64,000 nt of DNA. It comes from Yuukianura sp. NJ FZ-2021. Lineage: Eukaryota. The translations under genes were made by a program, and so were the position numbers. This document shows, one piece after another, positions 20,464-30,527 of this stretch. The stretch is taken from NCBI GenBank assembly GCA_046563655.1, contig CM102288.1, positions 1,116,001-1,180,000 on the forward strand, written 5' to 3'. Within the stretch, counting starts at the first letter, position 1. Every line of letters begins with the position of its first letter. The notes under the pieces were generated by a model. That model was not told the DNA's origin, did no database searches, and worked only from the letters and a program-made list of their open reading frames with translations.

Positions 20464-21091
<628 letters not shown>

Positions 21092-22045
21092 ACAGTTACT
21101 TCAAATAATCCCTTCGTAATTTTTTTTTATGTTATGAGGTTACAAATAACGAAGATCCTCAGTCCTAAATGCAACATCTCTAGGAGAGAGGTTCTTATAT
21201 AGCATTTTTTTGTCTACTAAAATGAATTTGAAGGTGTGTAGTAAGTGAAATATGTTCATGATTTGATGTAACTTGTACTTGTCCTAAATATTTGTAAATG
21301 AACTACTCTAAGGTCGATTCTTCTACATGCAAAGAGGGGGATCTTGATTCTTGAACAAATTAACTTAAAATGTTGTGTAATTAATTGACGTAAAGGCAGA
21401 TTCAGGCTGCTTACTTGTTCATAAATCTCGAGAAAGTAAGTTTTAACATCACAATTCAAAAATCAACACTCAAATCCCTCGTTAACATGTAATTGAATTC
21501 CCTTCTTTTTCTACTCGTCCAGTACTTGTTAAATGATCATCCAAAACTTTCACACTTACACCCAAAAATGGTAAATTTCCAATTCAAATAGTAAGTTAAG
21601 TTTTGTAATTGCTACTTTTTAGAAGAAAAAATTAGGTTAGGTAATAATTTTTAAGGTCTATTTATAAACATACACAGAGTTATTAATGATTTCTTGGAAT
21701 GCGTTTTGTTTTTTAGAAAACATAGCAGGACCAACCCCTTTCTCATAAAGTTAAGCCAAAAATGTAATTCAATTTAGTTGAAAAGTGTTAATGAGAGTCA
21801 ACCATTGTTCACTAATTACTAAAATGTTCTTAAAAGTTCAATTTTTGTGGGTTCGGTTTTAACAATGTATTGGCCAAGTTCAAACTCACAATGGGTGTCC
21901 TGCTTTTAAAAAATAAAATAGAGGTGTTCAGCCGAAACGTATTCGAAACGAAGTGGGAACAAGTATGATTTATTTCTAACCTTTAATTAATTGAAGTTAA
22001 CTTGAGTGTTTGTAAAACACTGACGACTAAACTAACGTTTGATAC

Positions 22046-22817
22046 TTACTTACCCACAAGTTTGCGTTCCTTTTCTGTAACTTCTGCCAGTCGAGCCTCA
22101 AGATCTTTAGTTGGAAGTCCACGGTCTTTGTTATGTTGGATTAGCATTACTAATTGAGACTTTTCCAGTCCAGGAATACGTTCCCACAACGATTTCCCAA
22201 GTTCTTCGTCAATGTCGTTCTCTTCCCGAAGAATTCCGAACCAGATGAGGAGACATGCAACGGAAATGACGACTACGTAAGGTTGAAACCAAGGGATGTC
22301 CTTTGCTCCTCGAGGTTGTAGTAAAAGTGTCTCAGTTGCCTTCCATTTTGATGCTTCTGAAGTCGTAAATTGTATTGGAGCATCTAACGTTTCTTCAGTT
22401 CTGGGGCTCCTTGTTCTCTCAGTCCCAGCGATTGAGGTCGCTTGATCACGTTCACGGTCTGATTCTGATGTTGGTTTGCTAGTAGTTTGGTGTTGTGATG
22501 GCACGGACGTCGCATTTCTGAAATGAAAATCATGAAAAGCAATGAATATCAGAGTTCAATGATGACGATCAGTCTTCTGTATCTGTACTTCATTTTGTTA
22601 AGACCAAAATGGACTGCTGCCACTCTCATGAGTTTCATCTTTGATAGGCATTACCTTACCTAACAAAGTAACTGCTTTGAGCGAAGCTTCGACTAGGTTG
22701 GCACAGGATGAAGCGACCTCCATGACCAATCGCTGGATCAGGAGACAATGCTAACAACGATTTATGAGAACGAATAAGAAGCCGCCCGATACTAATAATT
22801 CGTCTCGCTTCGGCCAT
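22046..22817 (-). CDS. UQCC4: CCSMST1 / ubiquinol-cytochrome c reductase complex assembly factor 4 homologue
   Basis: Exons 22817-22660 (MAEARRIISIGRLLIRS..., Arg/Ser-rich transit-peptide-like) and 22517-22046 join in frame. PIQFTTSEASKW, PWFQPYVVVISVACLLIWFGILREENDIDEEL and LWERIPGLE match my recollection of the CCSMST1 family. Confidence 0.8.
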
Positions 22818-23606
22818 CCCGTACCGGTCAGGGATCAACTAGCGGCCGGACTGTTATACTCCGAGCTTTGATGTTTGAATGGAACAGTATCTGTAACAAC
22901 AACCAAAGAGTTTTCATCATTGATTGATCATTATTTAAGACGTAATGTCAAACGGAAGTGCTAAAGAATGAAGTTCCAGACTGGAACTTCCAGTGAGTGG
23001 AAATTGAATAATTCCCTTTTTCCTATTAGAAAGAGTAGAAAGCGTTTGTGTTGAGTGACTCACATGAATGGTAATCGACCGCTAGCCGAAGGCTTTCCAG
23101 GGACCTTGGGGGAAAGCTAATTAGTAATTAGATAATTTTAGAGTGTGAAATTGTTAATTTTTAATGCAAATTAAAAAGTTAACGTGGTCTACCCAACCCA
23201 GAGTTGTTTACTTTTCAGCGATAAAAATCAGCTGGCAGAATATGCAAGTGAGGAACGGTACTAAGCACATGCTTTCAAATTTCTTGGCGGGAATGTACTT
23301 TTCACAGTCATTTGTTATCTTTGGATTTGTTTTTGTTTTTCGCCGTTAGTGAATCAATTAACGGTTAATTAAGAGTACGTGTCAATTACGACATTAACGT
23401 TGCTCAACTCATTTCAATCTGTATGATTGAGAGGTCGTGGACTTTATAATTGGTAAGTAAAAAGTGTTATACATAGGTATAAAACTTGTGAAAATAATTG
23501 ATTCATAATTCTAGATCTGATAAATAACGATTGATAGACATTTTAACACCAGCAGGAGCAACGACCTTGATGTACGATATTTTCGCCGAGCCAACAAGGA
23601 AATGCG

Positions 23607-26362
23607 ATGAGTAACCGAGTACTTAAGGTACTGAATGTAGCTGAGAAGAATGATGCGTCCAAACGAATAGCAAGTCTTCTGTCTAACGGAGGCGCAAGAA
23701 CAGTTAAGTATCAACTTTAAACAACTACTATAACGAAAAACGATATACGAGAAGGCGTGTTTTTTATTCCAGGGAAATGGAGCTTCGAAATATAACAAGA
23801 ATTACCAATTTCAGTATCGTCTTTGGAATGCAAACGCACAAATGACATTTACCTCAGTTTCTGGACATTTACTCAATTACGACTTTACACAGGATTACAG
23901 GAAATGGTACAACGTGGAACCAGTTGAACTGTTTGATGCACCTTTGGAGAGACTGTGTATTTCCACCATGAAAGATGTCAAAGTACGCAACTTCTTATTT
24001 TAATTGATGGAAAGAACCTAGACAATTATTAACTTTGGAATTTCAATTTTAGACAAACTTGGAACGTCAAGCGTCCTGCCACAACATCTTGATCATCTGG
24101 ACCGATTGTGATAGAGAAGGTGAACACATTGGTTTCGAAGTAATCGAAGTTTGCAGGCGTATAAATCCTAACCTCGACGTCTACCGAGCCAAGTTTTCAG
24201 AGATTACTCCGACAGCCATTACTCGAGCAATTCATAATTTAGTTCAGCCAGATAAGCGTGTCAACGATGCTGTGGATGTGAGGATGCAACTGGACCTGAG
24301 AATCGGTATCTTCACCAAGGCTAAATCGAATTCATTTCATACATATTGAATTTAACACGAATCTTTTTCAAAAGGAGCAGCATTTACGCGTTTTCAAACA
24401 ATGCGCCTTCAAAGAAGGTTTCCTTCCAAATTAACCAATCACGTCGTTAGCTACGGAAGCTGCCAGTTTCCTACGCTTGGGTTCGTTGTGGAAAGATACA
24501 AATCCATTATGAGTTTCATTCCCGAAGATTTCTGGAAAATTGCTGGTAAGCTGTCGTTGTTTTAACTTTTCTCTATTGATTTCTGAATTCTAAACTCTTC
24601 GTCTTCACTTGATGTAATACTTAGTTGCTCATACAATTGATGGAAAAAGAGTGGATTTCACTTGGGTCAGAGTTCGTCTTTTTAATGAACTTGCCTGTCG
24701 TTCAATATTCGAAAAATGTCAAGATTCACCCACCGCCACTGTCGTTTCTGTTACATCAAAACCCAAATCCAAATGGAGACCGGTGGCAATGGACACAGTT
24801 GTAAGTTACACTGTTATTTATTACACTGTAGTTTCTAAAGTATTGATTTTGAATGTGTACTTAAAATTGATTATCCCTGCCAATATGGTTTGCAATTTTC
24901 TAGGAACTTGAAAAACTCGCGTCGAGGAAACTCCGGATCAATGCCAAAGAGACAATGAAAATCGCTGAATCTCTGTACACTCGCGGTATCATCAGCTATC
25001 CAAGAACGGAGACAAACATTTTCCCTGGCGGCCTTGACTTGCGTCCCCTCATTCAGCAACATACGACTGATGCTAATTGGGGAGGTAAAATTATTTGCAT
25101 TGATAAATTGAAAATAGTACTGAATTGTGGAATAATCGCTGATCAATCTTTGCAAAACTTAGACTTTTCGCAGAGACTGCTTGCGCAAGGACCAAATCCA
25201 AGAAATGGAAGAAAGTCAGATCAAGCTCATCCGCCGATTCATCCTACCAGATATGAAACTGGTCTGCAAGGTGCGAAGATGACAACTTTATCTTCCAAAG
25301 CTTAAGTTTAAGTGTGACTATTGCATTGTTCTTCTAGAATTGTTGGTTTTGCAGGTAATGAGCTAAAGATTTACACTCTGATCGTTCGTCATTTCCTTGC
25401 GTGTTGTTCAAAAGATGCACTTGGCCAAGAAACTACTGTTGAAATTGACATTGCGGAAGAACGGGTATGATTATTTTTTTAACCTAGTTGACTACTGAAA
25501 TAAACTCAAATATGAAATACTTTGTTCATTTTAAGTTCATCGCGCATGGCCTCATTGTGCTTGAACGAAACTACTTGGAAGTTTACCCCTACGACAAATG
25601 GGCAGACAAAGAACTACCGAATTTTACTCAAGGACAAACTTTTATTCCAAATGTACTGGAAGTATCGCAGTCTCAAACGTCACCTCCAAATCTACTTACA
25701 GAAGCTGATTTAATTGCTCTTATGGAAAAACACGGAATTGGTATAAACAAATTCGATACTGGCAACATTTGTTGCCGCACAGTGTAGCCATCCATCCGTA
25801 AGATGGCTACACTGTGCGGCTACCATGACGGTCGTCGAACCTTACCCCAGCTGAAACCTGGTTAAACTGTTTCTTTTTTTTTAGGTACTGATGCAACCCA
25901 TGCTGATCATATTGAAACAATCAAGACAAGAAAATACATTGGAGTTGAAACGAATGGAAATCTTGTTCCTGGAGAACTGGGAATGGGATTGGTGGAGGGT
26001 TACGATGCAATGGGGATTGCCATGTCTAAACCCCATCTCAGAGCACATCTCGAAGCAGATTTAAAACGGTTTGAGCAGAATTTCAACTTTTAATTGTTTG
26101 AATTTTAACTCTAACTACTCATTTTATGAATTTAAGAATCTGCGAAGGACAGAAAGTGCCAGAAGATGTCCTCAGAGAGCAAGTTGCGAGTTATAGGGAT
26201 GTGTTTGTCCGGGTTTCGCAACAGGTTGCTTCTCTTAATTTTAGTTTAATGCAATTACATAATTTTTCATTTTATTATTGTCTAATAATTGTTGTACTAA
26301 ACGTGTAGGTTCAAAAATTGGATGACGCCGTGACCCAGTACTTGACGCGACCCGTTGGATAG
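23607..26362 (+). CDS. Top3a: DNA topoisomerase III-alpha, catalytic core only (611 aa)
   Basis: 12 exons: 23607-23702, 23773-23982, 24053-24305, 24375-24545, 24625-24800, 24904-25084, 25163-25270, 25355-25464, 25536-25740, 25885-26068, 26137-26224, 26309-26362 (1836 nt). Motifs: VLNVAEKND (alpha-type), [28 protein letters not shown], active site [31 protein letters not shown]. Confidence 0.95.
25774..25820. repeat. Perfect 19-bp inverted repeat (hairpin) in Top3a intron 9
   Basis: GCCGCACAGTGTAGCCATC (25774-25792), 9-nt loop, GATGGCTACACTGTGCGGC (25802-25820). Confidence 0.95.
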
Positions 26363-27069
26363 AACCATGACCAATTATGGAAAATACTTGACCGACCTGA
26401 CGTTTCTACTGTCTAAGGATTCGCTTTTTTGTTAGTTACTTATTTATTTTATTTGTTACGTTATGTTAAATGTTAGTTTCGCTTTTGGCATCAATAATAG
26501 TTCTTGCAACGTGAACTTAAATGCAACCTAGAACTAGTCTTTCGAAAAATATTTTCTTAAAAATTTTCCATTTTAAGCTCGTGAACCTTTTAAGCTTACT
26601 CTATTGTGTTCAGTTTGACAAGCTCGCTTGGTATTAACTTTTGGTGATTTTAGAAGTTCAGGTTTAATGACTCAACCATTTCTTGAAACTAAACAAAAAA
26701 CACACCCTTGGAACAATGTAAAAGAAAAACTTTTTCTTGGCTTTAAAAGCATTTGTACTATTCGAAATCTTTCTGAAAATTTGTTTTAAACTAAATGCTT
26801 CCCAGAATTTGAAGGGTACAGCGTCGTGCTGTAAGTTTGGGTCCTGTACAAAACTATTCCCTCTGTGTGTGTTTGTGTGAAGTTAGGATATTTTTCAACA
26901 AAGCTGAAAAGGTCAAGGCTATAAAATCACAAACTTGAGCATCCCATTTCTCTGTGTCCGTCTGACTATACGATCTTGTCAAATTCTCTCCAGTTAGGTT
27001 ATTCTACGATTCCTCCAACTTTATTCGTTCACCCGGTACCAGTCGTACGTCCGTCGCTTCCAACTTACG

Positions 27070-27745
27070 ATGATACGAGAAGTCATCCACTTCGTTTTTC
27101 GAATGCTGCTGGCAATTGAGTTTGTCATACAGTATGCACTCTGCTCTGGACCTCCAAACGAAGTCGAGGTTAGTTTACTATCCAAAATTTTGATCATGTC
27201 ATGTCAGGTCAAAGTTTCTTGACAACCAACGTTAACGTTTTACTTTCAAGAAATACTTGTCTAACTACCTTGAATTTATGGTGTTACTACTATGAGTATT
27301 ATTCGTCTTTTAAGTTTTCCAAGAAATTCTTTAGGGATGGGTTTGAGCGCTTTGTTTTATTCTTTTAGGTTTTTGTACATAAATACAACCTTGAACTCGC
27401 GCGGGACGAGGACTTCGTCAAGAAAAGGATTGAGGCATGGGAAGACACACACAAGATTGTTCGAGAAAAAATTTGGGCTTGGAACGAGACACTGAAGAAC
27501 ATTCAAGCGTCGCGACGCACGTTTCGCGTTTTTGTTGGACAGTCTAATCAACGTCCGGTAAGATCTCAATTTTTTTTTTAATAAAATATTGTTCAGCAAT
27601 TTCTTAGGGTACTTGTGGAAGTTCGATTTTCGGTTCCTGTTCCAAATCTTCCGTAGATTGGGATGTAGGTTGGTCCAAGCGAGTCCACTCTACCCCTAAA
27701 GGAATTTATGGGACCATCGACCATCAAGAATACTTACATACTTAG
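27070..27745 (+). CDS. Small orphan, probably secreted protein (141 aa), absent from the ORF track
   Basis: Exons 27070-27168, 27369-27557, 27608-27745, all phase 0 with GT-AG sites (GAG|gttagt, ttttag|, CCG|gtaaga, cttag|) and stop-free. TATAAAA at 26920. Hydrophobic N-terminus. Confidence 0.75.
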
Positions 27746-28589
27746 TTTTTACCTGTCTTTTGTTTTTTTTTAATATTTACCCCAGTTTTTAAAATCATAA
27801 CGCAAAATGCTTTATAATTTTGATAAAGTTTTTTGGTTTATTTGATTTGTTTTGAATGTGAACTCTCAATTAAATTATAAATCAAATGTCGCTCGTTAAA
27901 TTTTCTGCCTATGTTCTAAGTTATTTCTACTTTCGGTTTGGTTAGATAGATGCGGTGTGGTGTATTTAAGCATTTTGGTCAATTGGAGAATTCATTGGGC
28001 TTAATTTTAATTGGTTTTAGGTTAACGAGAGGTGCCAAGGATGAATTTATGGGACTGGAATTCATGACTACTTTCATTTCTGGCTACGGTTACATTTCCA
28101 AGCTCTGCAAATGCTTTCATACACTATTTAGTTTTCGGTTGAGTTGAGTAGTTAACCGTACTAAATACCGTAGAATGAACTATAATAAACATTTTGTACT
28201 GTTAAAATTAATTCCATTTTAAGAGTGAGTTTAGAAATAAAATTAGCCCTATAGCTCTGACTTGAGTTGACTACAAAGACAAACTCTACTAAACGAATTG
28301 AAACGCAGTTTGATATTTTAGTAGTAACTTTTCGCAAATGGGGTTTAGTTGTTATGTTATGCCAAAATTAGTTTCACGTTTGTCTAAGATTTCAATCGTG
28401 ACATTCATTCCTAATTTAGTGGGCACTTGCCCTGATCAAAATTTGCTCAATATAGCCTCAACTTTCAGCCTAACGTTTGATTTTAATTTGATAAAGTACT
28501 TCTTCATATTTTGACGTCTTATAAAAGAACGCTATAAAAGGAACAGTTTACATTCAGTTGGAACGTTTGTTCTTCGGGGAAATTGCAAT

Positions 28590-30527
28590 ATGAATCGGTA
28601 CACGATCGTATTCGTAATTGTTTGTTTAACTTTAAGTTGTACAAGTCATTTATTCGTGGGAGGAACAAATTCAAATGCAAACTGTTCAAGTATTTCACCA
28701 TTGCTGTTCCAACTTTTACTTCAACTTTTTCCAAATCATCACTTCAACTTGATCCAAGACGACAAAAGTGCAGGCAGCTTTTCATTGTCCCAACTCTGGA
28801 CAGTTTCCACAATTACCATCACTACTGGAACAGTATTTGCCACGAACTGGACATCGCAGCATCTTGTTCATCGATATCTCAATTGGGATTGGCTCAACTT
28901 TGTAGTCGTGGATGGAAGTATTGACCAACATTTATTTCAACGTATGACCGAAAACGTAGTTTCAAGAGCCACTCGACAACTCTATACCGACTACACCATG
29001 ATTTGGCAACATCAAAATTTCAATCCGACGCTTCTACATTCTCCACATCTTCAAAAATTGAAATTCAAAGTTGAAATGCACCAATCAACTCCCGATTCCA
29101 ACGAAATTCACTTCAGTTCAATTTGTTTTTACTGTAACAATGGACAGCCTGTGAAGCAAACGAAAACATACGTTTTGAACCAAAATTTCATCAAAATTAG
29201 TACGAAATCCGAAATTTTTCCGGATTTCACTACCGGATTTCATGGAAAAACGGTTCGAGTTACAGGCGGAATTGGAATTCCACTGCTAATGGATTTCGGC
29301 CAATCAGAAAACGGAACTTGGTTCCCCAGAAGAGGATTTATGATTGATCCAATATTTTTTCAAGTTCAATTCAAAATGAACTTTACCATTACAACTCGCG
29401 TTTTTAAAACTTTTGGATCACAGTTGGAAAATGGCTCATTTACTGGATTTGTGAACGAATTGTTTCATGATAGAGCCGATATCGGTATGGCTGGACAGTC
29501 TTATGATCGAATTCAAGCTGTGCATTTTCTAGATCCAATACATATTGACAGTGTTTCTTTTGCTACAGCAGTGCCTCACACTGGAGTCAAATGGACAGCC
29601 ATTTTTAAAGCGTTCAACTGGGACGCTTGGTTACTTTTGATTGGGATTTGTTTTCTGATTGTCCTTCCAGTGTACACTGCGCTTCAAAAATTTCACAAAC
29701 TTCAAAAATTTCAAATTTCTTTCAAAACTTCCTGGAAGGATTTTGGAAATGGGATTGGATTCATTTATAGACCAATCCTGGAACAGGACTTGACCGACCA
29801 ACTTGTTCCAAAGTACGACTCTGGAAAATTGTTAACAATTTTTTGGCTCTACACTGTCGTCATTGTGACTGTTGCATATAAAAGTAAGTTAACATCACTC
29901 ATGGTCATGCCCGAAGCAGAACTTGTTCCAAACAGTTTTGAAGAACTGGCAGCATCCAAGTACAAAATCATTCTACATCATGTTGGTGGCGCTCTGCATA
30001 AAAATATTCAATCAACATCTTCTCCCACTTTTCAAAAAATTGCTAAACGGCTAACACTGGAGAAATCCATGTTTCAGTGTCTCCAAAAAGCACAACTTTC
30101 TAAGAAAACTGCTTGTGTCTCCTATATTCATAATATTATTGGCGAAACGTTTAGAAATTTTACTGATTCCAATGGAATTTCGTGTCTAAGGATGGCCCAA
30201 ACTAATGTTTTTATGACAGCAGGGTCATATTTTGTGCAAAAAAGTGCTGTTTTTAGAGACAGCATGAATTCAGTTGTAGCAAATCAAATTGCATTTGGAT
30301 TTGGAAAGTTAGGGCTTGATCGAGCTTTTCAAAAACCAATGGATGAAGGGAAAATTTGGGCTCGAGAGAGACCAGATTTGTTCAAATGGTCCAAAAGTGA
30401 TGGTGGACCACAACCAACTCAACTGGGTCATGTCATAGCTGCTTTTGGAATTCAATTTGTCTGTCTTTGTATTGCACTGATTGTTTTTGGTTTTGAAAAA
30501 TTCGTTTTCAAGATAAAGATTTATTAA
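28590..30527 (+). CDS. Divergent ionotropic receptor (IR, iGluR-related chemoreceptor), intronless, 645 aa
   Basis: Signal peptide. S1 lobe FGSQLENGSFTGFVNELFHDRADIGM...SYDRIQAVHF. AIFKAFNWDAW then M1, pore region, M2 ending AYKSKLTSLM, PNSFEELA S2 lobe, C-terminal M3. Two TATAAAAG boxes (28520, 28533) and TCAGTT (28554) upstream. Confidence 0.92.
   Translation: MNRYTIVFVIVCLTLSCTSHLFVGGTNSNANCSSISPLLFQLLLQLFPNHHFNLIQDDKSAGSFSLSQLWTVSTITITTGTVFATNWTSQHLVHRYLNWDWLNFVVVDGSIDQHLFQRMTENVVSRATRQLYTDYTMIWQHQNFNPTLLHSPHLQKLKFKVEMHQSTPDSNEIHFSSICFYCNNGQPVKQTKTYVLNQNFIKISTKSEIFPDFTTGFHGKTVRVTGGIGIPLLMDFGQSENGTWFPRRGFMIDPIFFQVQFKMNFTITTRVFKTFGSQLENGSFTGFVNELFHDRADIGMAGQSYDRIQAVHFLDPIHIDSVSFATAVPHTGVKWTAIFKAFNWDAWLLLIGICFLIVLPVYTALQKFHKLQKFQISFKTSWKDFGNGIGFIYRPILEQDLTDQLVPKYDSGKLLTIFWLYTVVIVTVAYKSKLTSLMVMPEAELVPNSFEELAASKYKIILHHVGGALHKNIQSTSSPTFQKIAKRLTLEKSMFQCLQKAQLSKKTACVSYIHNIIGETFRNFTDSNGISCLRMAQTNVFMTAGSYFVQKSAVFRDSMNSVVANQIAFGFGKLGLDRAFQKPMDEGKIWARERPDLFKWSKSDGGPQPTQLGHVIAAFGIQFVCLCIALIVFGFEKFVFKIKIY

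What the first reader, a model, noticed from the sequence alone, without database searches (positions are those of the whole stretch)
23607..26362. Minimal, yeast-like Top3alpha lacking the whole C-terminal zinc-finger region
Seen: an intact 611-aa ORF with all catalytic motifs ends at [15 protein letters not shown], right after the type IA core. The next ~2 kb hold UTR-like sequence and an unrelated gene, with no CxxC, GRF or CCHC exons. Readthrough of the TAG adds only 17 residues. Known: metazoan Top3alpha normally carries a C4 zinc ribbon, GRF fingers and CCHC knuckles (human ~1000 aa), whereas budding yeast Top3 is core-only. Inference: lineage-specific streamlining of the BLM-Top3a-RMI dissolvasome, or a specialised duplicate.
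Basis: partly seen in the sequence, partly recalled or inferred. Interest (0 to 1): 0.7.

Follow-up and report, generated by a model that had tools for sequence, protein, structure and literature searches.

The report
Springtail topoisomerase 3α lacking its tail
A springtail's only copy of the DNA-untangling enzyme Top3α stops right after its catalytic core and has none of the zinc fingers that animals normally carry, so it looks like a natural version of a deletion made so far in laboratory mutants.

Summary
Twelve GT-AG exons give an intact 611-aa Top3α with all catalytic residues. It ends six residues after the equivalent of human Tyr634, about where the crystallised human core ends. No C4, GRF or CCHC finger was found in 464 kb around the gene or by genome-wide searches. 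It is the only Top3α in the assembly, so it is not a specialised duplicate, and it groups with springtail Top3α, not with fungal Top3. Orchesella and Folsomia already lack the C4 ribbon, a springtail-like contig keeps one GRF, and hard ticks keep one CCHC. This gene is the zero-finger end of that series (0 of 228 homologues are this short). The complex is not yeast-like overall: a BLM-like helicase, RMI1 with OB2, and RMI2 are present. Most likely it is an active core positioned by RMI1 alone, with weaker crossover suppression. The first exon also has no in-frame mitochondrial leader. There was no transcript and no second tail-less genome to check, so an assembly error is not excluded. Word and sequence look-ups found no earlier report of this in the scan.

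The parts
23607..26362 (+). Top3α (TOP3A) gene, 12 coding exons, 611 aa, Toprim plus type IA core only
   Evidence: Gene model; 66% and 65% identical to Orchesella cincta and O. dallaii Top3α over aligned positions; tree
23568..23570 (+). In-frame TGA 39 nt upstream of the start codon, which rules out a contiguous N-terminal (mitochondrial) extension
23607..23702 (+). Exon 1, with Toprim Glu13 (VAEK motif)
23773..23982 (+). Exon 2
24053..24305 (+). Exon 3, with the metal-binding D120, D122 and E124
24375..24545 (+). Exon 4
24625..24800 (+). Exon 5
24904..25084 (+). Exon 6, with catalytic Tyr334 (codon 24997-24999) and Arg336
25163..25270 (+). Exon 7, with His385
25355..25464 (+). Exon 8
25536..25740 (+). 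Exon 9
25885..26068 (+). Exon 10
26137..26224 (+). Exon 11; the intron after it is at the same position as in springtail-like locus L024
26309..26362 (+). Exon 12: last helix of the core and the TAG stop. In L022, L024 and L025 the equivalent exon runs on in frame into the tail
26363..26900 (+). Presumed 3' UTR and spacer: single-copy, T-rich, no canonical poly(A) hexamer

Best explanation
This is the single, vertically inherited Top3α of a springtail, and it has really lost its whole C-terminal tail. The loss was the last of several steps: the C4 ribbon went in the springtail ancestor, and the linker, GRF fingers and CCHC knuckle went later in this lineage. Shown by sequence: an intact core with every catalytic residue, a stop at the domain border, no tail found in the assembly, and the partner genes present. 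Inferred from work in other species: the core still cuts one DNA strand through Tyr334, passes the other through the gate and reseals. It does so bound to RMI1, which bridges it to BLM and RMI2. With the tail's own DNA-binding and BLM-binding surfaces gone, targeting to D-loops and double Holliday junctions rests on RMI1-RMI2 and BLM. The expected result is normal decatenation, with weaker suppression of extra crossovers. Nuclear import may also depend on a partner, since the predicted human NLS lies in the tail.
For: Intact model and catalytic residues. The end matches human residue ~640, and PMC10165364 says the crystallised construct omits the last ~360 of 1001 residues. Single copy. Springtail clade at 100/99 with a branch of 0.49, against about 0.35-0.41 for the others from the same node. 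No tail in 464 kb, while controls scored. A DNA pattern for the GRF core gave 3 hits in the genome, the same number as its reversed control, and none in a GRF context. The matching protein motif is in 170 of 188 homologues over 800 aa, and the DNA pattern is in 8 of 9 hand-picked tail-bearing loci. Graded loss in relatives: no C4 ribbon in P0002, P0004 and P0121; one GRF and then a stop in L022; two GRF and a CCHC in L025. Five tick-type proteins have only a CCHC. The Top3β locus of the same assembly keeps its cysteine motifs and RG tail. RMI1 OB1 and OB2, RMI2 and DEAD-RQC-HRDC matches. Finger deletions are viable with extra crossovers in C. elegans (PMC9178014) and fertile with extra crossovers in Arabidopsis (PMC5389728), and the human core dissolves dHJs in vitro.
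Against: No transcript could be examined, and no second genome with the same stop was found. The closest relative, L021 (84% in exon 9), ends at residue 565. There is no canonical poly(A) signal for 1.2 kb after the stop, whereas L022 and L025 have one. The protein departs at 14 of 233 highly conserved columns, against 5 in each named springtail and a median of 1; 12 of 228 homologues depart as much. In Drosophila the C-terminal region is reported essential for dissolution (PMC4109787). The Pfam GRF search of the genome had no positive control. All functional steps are inferred.
Confidence: 0.78

Rival explanations
1. Assembly error: about 1 kb of GC-rich, low-complexity tail was dropped or misjoined just after the core, and the animal has an ordinary springtail Top3α.
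For: In relatives a low-complexity G/P/R linker starts exactly here. No canonical poly(A) signal follows the stop. No independent genome shows the same end.
Against: The gene sits 1.14 Mb into a 6.57-Mb contig with no N in 464 kb. The 801 bases across the stop are single-copy, with no notable repeat at the junction. No orphaned tail was found elsewhere. The RG-rich tail of Top3β did assemble.
Confidence: 0.1
2. Recent truncation with partial decay: a young deletion or nonsense allele fixed in this strain or a small population, leaving a hypomorphic enzyme under relaxed selection rather than an old, stable design.
For: 14 departures at conserved columns and a somewhat longer branch; no canonical poly(A) signal; no contiguous mitochondrial leader.
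Against: No remnant of the tail follows the stop in any frame, so it is not a simple nonsense mutation. The departures are mostly conservative and spare the active site. The gene is single-copy, and TOP3α is described as essential in mammals, worm and fly (PMC6160208).
Confidence: 0.07
3. Split gene or hidden exons: the tail survives as distant exons or as a separate small gene too diverged or too intron-broken to detect.
For: The genome-wide tools score only top candidates, and patterns fail when an intron cuts the motif. The GRF pattern missed 1 of 9 control loci, and the CCHC pattern had no sensitivity test.
Against: Introns of this gene are 68-144 nt. Among the 25 longest cryptic donor-acceptor extensions within 4 kb, none reads as a tail. 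Nothing in 464 kb reaches the scores that intron-broken controls give.
Confidence: 0.04
4. Horizontal replacement by a fungal core-only Top3.
For: Ascomycete Top3 lacks fingers (PMC10969213); core-only proteins are common among non-animal cluster representatives.
Against: It nests with springtail Top3α at 100/99 and inside a fully supported animal clade, and it shares intron positions with springtail-like loci.
Confidence: 0.01

Closest known systems
Springtail Top3α: Orchesella cincta (P0002, 1008 aa), O. dallaii (P0004, 933 aa), Folsomia candida (P0121, 1066 aa)
   Same: Orthologous core, 65-66% identical to the two Orchesella proteins; one clade; no C4 ribbon.
   Different: They keep a long low-complexity tail (about 330 aa in the two Orchesella proteins) with GRF fingers and a CCHC. 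P0002 and P0121 have 73- and 110-aa N-terminal extensions.
Hard-tick Top3α: Ixodes scapularis (P0316), Rhipicephalus appendiculatus (P0281)
   Same: Animal Top3α that has independently lost the C4 ribbon and both GRF fingers.
   Different: Keeps a 60-67-aa tail ending in one CCHC knuckle, and an N-terminal extension.
Human TOP3A in the BLM-TOP3A-RMI1-RMI2 complex (P0183; structures 4CGY, 4CHT)
   Same: All catalytic residues align; partner genes are present in this genome.
   Different: Human has about 360 more residues, with fingers that cross-link to and pull down BLM (PMC8832983), a predicted NLS (PMC12585908) and an upstream start codon for a mitochondrial form (PMC10165364).
Saccharomyces cerevisiae Top3 (Sgs1-Top3-Rmi1)
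   Same: Core-only layout with zero fingers (PMC9178014).
   Different: Not derived from fungi (the fungal rows were unnamed metagenome sequences, not yeast Top3 itself). Yeast Rmi1 lacks OB2 and yeast has no RMI2, while this genome has both.
Engineered truncations: C. elegans top-3-ZnF (jf153), Arabidopsis top3α-R640X, Drosophila C-terminal truncation
   Same: They remove the finger region. R640X removes the entire C-terminal domain (PMC5389728).
   Different: These are laboratory hypomorphs with extra crossovers (worm, plant). In the fly, which appears to lack RMI1, a C-terminal insertion is essential for dissolution (PMC4109787); failure of the truncation to rescue viability is recalled from Chen et al. 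2012, which was not held. Here the state appears natural.

Membership tests
Eukaryotic topoisomerase IIIα (TOP3A orthologues) | Toprim domain with the acidic metal-binding residues | tested here: met
   E13, D120, D122, E124 align to human E41, D148, D150, E152
Eukaryotic topoisomerase IIIα (TOP3A orthologues) | Type IA core with catalytic Tyr, Arg and His | tested here: met
   Y334, R336, H385 align to human Y362, R364, H414; PF01131 matches
Eukaryotic topoisomerase IIIα (TOP3A orthologues) | Orthology with Top3α rather than Top3β | tested here: met
   66% to Orchesella Top3α against 43% for exon 3 to the C8 paralogue; nests among animal Top3α (no Top3β row was in the trees)
Canonical animal/plant TOP3A architecture | One to five C-terminal zinc fingers (PMC5389728); typical of the architecture, not needed for orthology | tested here: not met
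   None in the gene, in 464 kb around it, or by genome-wide patterns. Filed as a TOP3A orthologue, not as the canonical architecture.
Canonical animal/plant TOP3A architecture | Upstream in-frame start giving a mitochondrial isoform (shown in human and Drosophila) | tested here: inconclusive
   In-frame TGA 39 nt upstream. An upstream exon could join only at acceptors 23591 or 23599, through introns of 154-341 nt among the stricter candidates. Needs 5' RNA data.
BTR/BTRR dissolvasome | Genes for BLM, RMI1 (OB1 and OB2) and RMI2 in the genome | tested here: met
   RMI1_N 75 bits and RMI1_C 31 bits; RMI2 in two adjacent pieces of 21-22 bits, each below the 29.4 cut-off; RecQ with DEAD, RQC and HRDC. 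BLM versus other RecQ helicases was not tested on a tree.
BTR/BTRR dissolvasome | Physical binding to RMI1 and dHJ dissolution | not tested
   No complex prediction or assay was run
Budding-yeast Sgs1-Top3-Rmi1 type | Core-only Top3 | tested here: met
   6 residues after the Tyr634 equivalent
Budding-yeast Sgs1-Top3-Rmi1 type | Fungal descent; Rmi1 without OB2; no RMI2 | tested here: not met
Topoisomerase IIIβ | Top3β-type core with cysteine-rich and RGG tail | tested here: not met
   The genome's Top3β is a separate locus on C8 that has this tail

The most novel reading that the evidence does not exclude
The enzyme has been trimmed at both ends: no tail, and so no tail NLS or direct BLM contact, and no mitochondrial presequence. 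It would then be a nucleus-only, RMI1-dependent enzyme. This animal would segregate its mtDNA without a mitochondrial type IA topoisomerase, which flies and humans need, since no third type IA gene was found and its Top3β has no contiguous leader either.
Probability: 0.2. Interest if true: 0.68.

Novelty: new variant of a known kind. Interest (0 to 1): 0.42.

Why it matters
PMC5389728 states that outside the yeast lineage TOP3α carries one to five zinc fingers, and PMC6160208 says the first (T1) finger is conserved in all higher eukaryotes. This gene would be a natural zero-finger animal case, and the springtail and tick sequences break the second statement as well. What the tail does is still called obscure in those papers. 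A natural series (C4+GRF+CCHC; GRF+CCHC; one GRF; CCHC only; none) allows a direct test of whether the tail is dispensable only where RMI1-RMI2 are kept, and whether losing it raises crossover rates. The surprise is limited, because worm and plant deletion mutants live and the human core works in vitro. If the mitochondrial form is also gone, it would matter more.

Tried and rejected
RNA runs: no RNA holder was listed for 21900-28200, so no reads could be laid; this is no evidence either way. Pfam searches of the genome: PF01396 gave 3 matches under the cut-off; PF06839 gave none but rang in no control either; one Orchesella GRF as query gave 0 candidates. These count as weak negatives only. 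The CCHC pattern gave 6 hits: five near-identical copies of a repeat and one frame with a stop. An alignment of the separate exons with Orchesella proteins was poor and was not used. Three protein searches and the metagenome scan found no close relative covering the 3' end. Eight of 228 homologues showed no finger by my patterns. P0008, P0009, P0123, P0029 and P0050 end inside a cysteine motif and look like cut models. P0278 has a finger-bearing entry from the same species (P0287), P0300 carries an unrelated PF00617 domain, and P0307 has PF06839 on record. I did not count them as precedents. Spliced models of L021, L022 and L025 were not built, so these loci are not in the trees and no dN/dS was computed; their springtail assignment rests on similarity and shared introns. 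No structure or complex was predicted, because the spliced protein cannot be given as one stretch of the window. The bacterial promoter scan is irrelevant here. The Atlas search for the downstream gene gave only low scores. Chen et al. 2012 (PMC3365971) was not held. Not-in-print searches. One search (Collembola, topoisomerase, recombination, genome) gave 0 papers, and none of the 15 papers listed mentions springtails. I did not open supplementary figures S1B-C of PMC9178014 or S1 of PMC5389728, which list fingers by organism and could bear on novelty.

Full report
Observation. The gene runs from 23607 to 26362 on the + strand in 12 exons with 11 GT-AG introns of 68-144 nt. It gives 611 codons and a TAG, with no internal stop, and ends ...[15 protein letters not shown]; readthrough adds 17 residues. 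Human E41, D148, D150, E152, Y362, R364 and H414 align to E13, D120, D122, E124, Y334, R336 and H385, and human Y634 aligns to Y605. The protein therefore ends at about human residue 640. PMC10165364 (passages) says the crystallised human construct omits the last ~360 of 1001 residues, so the stop sits at the border of the folded core.

What organism and which gene. The window lies at C6:1116001-1180000 of a 98.7-Mb assembly in 22 contigs. The best named matches are springtail Top3α proteins. In a 30-row IQ-TREE tree the protein groups with Orchesella cincta, O. dallaii and Folsomia candida at 100/99, as sister to those three, with a branch of 0.49 against about 0.35-0.41 for the others from the same node. 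A 38-row FastTree places it inside a fully supported animal clade, away from an ascomycete-like sequence. Searches with exon 3, with O. dallaii Top3α and with PF01131 found only this locus and one on C8. The C8 gene is Top3β by its motifs (recalled) and keeps cysteine motifs and an RG-rich end. So there is no full-length paralogue, and the 'specialised duplicate' reading fails.

Is the tail somewhere else? A profile of 82 tails scored at most 7.2 bits in the window. I fetched 200 kb on each side and scanned 464 kb, with no N, using profiles from 300 GRF, 207 CCHC and 163 C4 motifs and the tail profile. The best score was 12.3 bits. Nine of the 10 control loci carry a Top3α tail, and the best tail-profile match in each scored 27-93 bits; the tenth was the Top3β locus. 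Genome-wide, a DNA pattern for the GRF core gave 3 hits, the same number as its reversed control, and none in a GRF context. The protein motif occurs in 170 of 188 homologues over 800 aa, and the DNA pattern in 8 of 9 tail-bearing loci that I picked from the 80 fetched. A CCHC pattern gave 6 hits, none of Top3α type; its sensitivity was not tested. The Pfam searches were weak negatives. Among the 25 longest cryptic splice extensions from the last exon within 4 kb, none reads as a tail; the longest run into the two downstream genes. The 801 bases across the stop are single-copy.

Relatives show a graded loss. P0002, P0004 and P0121 have GRF fingers and a CCHC but no C4 ribbon; the core runs straight into a low-complexity linker. 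A metagenome scan with exon 9 kept 80 of 121 loci. The five best (75-84% identical) look like springtails; the four I read in full share intron positions with this gene. L025 has two GRF and a CCHC. L022 has a linker, one GRF and then a stop with UTR-like DNA, inside a 35-kb contig. L024 shares the intron before the last exon, and its tail starts within that exon. The stop in the window therefore falls inside what is a long exon in relatives. L021, the closest, ends at residue 565, and L023 ends earlier still; neither says anything about the tail. Separately, five tick-type proteins (Ixodes P0314 and P0316, Rhipicephalus P0281, unnamed P0271 and P0282) have a 60-67-aa tail with a single CCHC. 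C. elegans has one GRF (PMC9178014, passages). Of 228 homologues that span the core, none has a tail of 20 residues or fewer; the shortest is 42 and the median 375. Among 145 new cluster representatives, 102 span the core and 22 have tails of 110 or fewer. The core-only ones fall outside the animal clade, and the two inside it carry cysteine motifs. Clustering at 50% identity hides most animal sequences, so this is a limited sample.

Partners. RMI1 is present with both OB folds (75 and 31 bits), RMI2 as two adjacent matches each below the cut-off, and a RecQ helicase with DEAD, RQC and HRDC domains that I read as BLM without a tree. Yeast Rmi1 lacks OB2 (PMC5389728, passages) and yeast has no RMI2 (PMC6160208, abstract and passages). 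Only the topoisomerase is yeast-like; the complex is not.

How it most likely works. Shown: intact core, no tail, partner genes present. Inferred: the core cleaves and passes single strands as part of a BLM-RMI1-RMI2 complex. The human core without the tail dissolves double Holliday junctions in vitro. Arabidopsis R640X removes the whole tail, still binds RECQ4A and RMI1 in two-hybrid tests, resolves intermediates and gives extra crossovers (PMC5389728). The worm finger deletion is viable with extra crossovers and becomes severe when the RMI1 homologue RMH-2 is removed (PMC9178014). Human fingers contact BLM (PMC8832983, passages). [quoted passage not shown] Together these suggest that the tail and RMI1-RMI2 are partly redundant ways of tethering the core to BLM and DNA, and that this springtail relies on the second. 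The predicted human NLS is in the tail (PMC12585908, abstract and passages), and a simple pattern finds no basic NLS in this protein, so import may be by piggy-back. The same pattern also finds none in Folsomia, so this point is weak.

A second oddity. An in-frame TGA lies 39 nt upstream of the start codon. In contrast, 148 of 179 long homologues have 15 or more residues ahead of the equivalent position, and L022 and L025 are open upstream. Human and fly make a mitochondrial form from an upstream start (PMC10165364), and flies without it have mtDNA loss and short lives (PMC4828762, abstract; PMC6514783, passages). An upstream exon could still join at 23591 or 23599, and one candidate gives a basic, acid-free leader, but through introns longer than any in this gene and weak acceptors. 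This is unresolved without RNA.

Evidence against. No RNA run was listed (no evidence either way) and no second genome shows this stop. There is no AATAAA or ATTAAA on the + strand from the stop to 27580, while L022 and L025 have one after their stops. The protein departs at 14 of 233 conserved columns, against 5 in each named springtail. A low-complexity linker begins at this very point in relatives, which is where an assembler might slip. I put real, stable loss at 0.78, assembly error at 0.10, recent truncation with decay at 0.07, a hidden tail at 0.04 and fungal origin at 0.01.

Novelty and verdict. PMC5389728 says TOP3α outside the yeast lineage has one to five fingers. Seven paper searches turned up no natural zero-finger animal form; supplementary figures that list fingers by species were not opened, and PMC3879244 gave only reference-list hits. 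Look-ups in this scan by words and by sequence found nothing similar. This is a new variant of a known enzyme: probably real, the extreme of a trend, useful as a natural test of what the tail does, and of moderate interest (0.42).

Noticed in passing
window 23568-23606: No contiguous in-frame N-terminal extension before the Top3α start; two out-of-frame upstream ATGs at 23570 and 23602 overlap the start region. The mitochondrial isoform may be lost or encoded by an upstream exon.
   Followed up: partly
window 25771-25823: A 22-bp inverted repeat (95% complementary, 9-nt loop) in intron 9 makes it the longest intron of the gene (144 nt); possibly a small mobile-element remnant.
   Followed up: no
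window 22046-22630, minus strand: CCSMST1-family gene (PF15013) head-to-head with Top3α, about 1 kb apart (first exon read by eye).
   Followed up: partly
window 27070-27745, plus strand: Tentative three-exon gene of about 141 aa with a hydrophobic N-terminus and a TATA-like box at 26920; no Pfam match over a cut-off for the pieces tested and no convincing Atlas match.
   Followed up: partly
window 28590-30527, plus strand: Intronless open frame with weak ligand-gated ion channel matches, like a divergent ionotropic receptor.
   Followed up: no
window 20676-21091, plus strand: Intron-containing histone H3 gene, recognised from recall in the frames.
   Followed up: no
proteins P0271, P0281, P0282, P0314, P0316: Hard-tick Top3α is about 710 aa: core, short G/R-rich linker and one CCHC, with no C4 or GRF finger; an independent near-complete tail loss.
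   Followed up: partly
L022:8566-9363: Springtail-like Top3α whose tail ends after a single GRF finger, with no CCHC.
   Followed up: partly
L032, L033, L091: Another lineage (unassigned; groups with P0029) with Top3α lacking the C4 ribbon and keeping one GRF and a CCHC.
   Followed up: no
G000 whole genome: No GRF zinc finger of any gene was detected in this assembly; other GRF proteins may also be lost, or the searches missed them.
   Followed up: no
L115, L116, L118, L119, L120: Five near-identical copies of a dispersed repeat on C3, C5 and C8 that matched the CCHC pattern.
   Followed up: no
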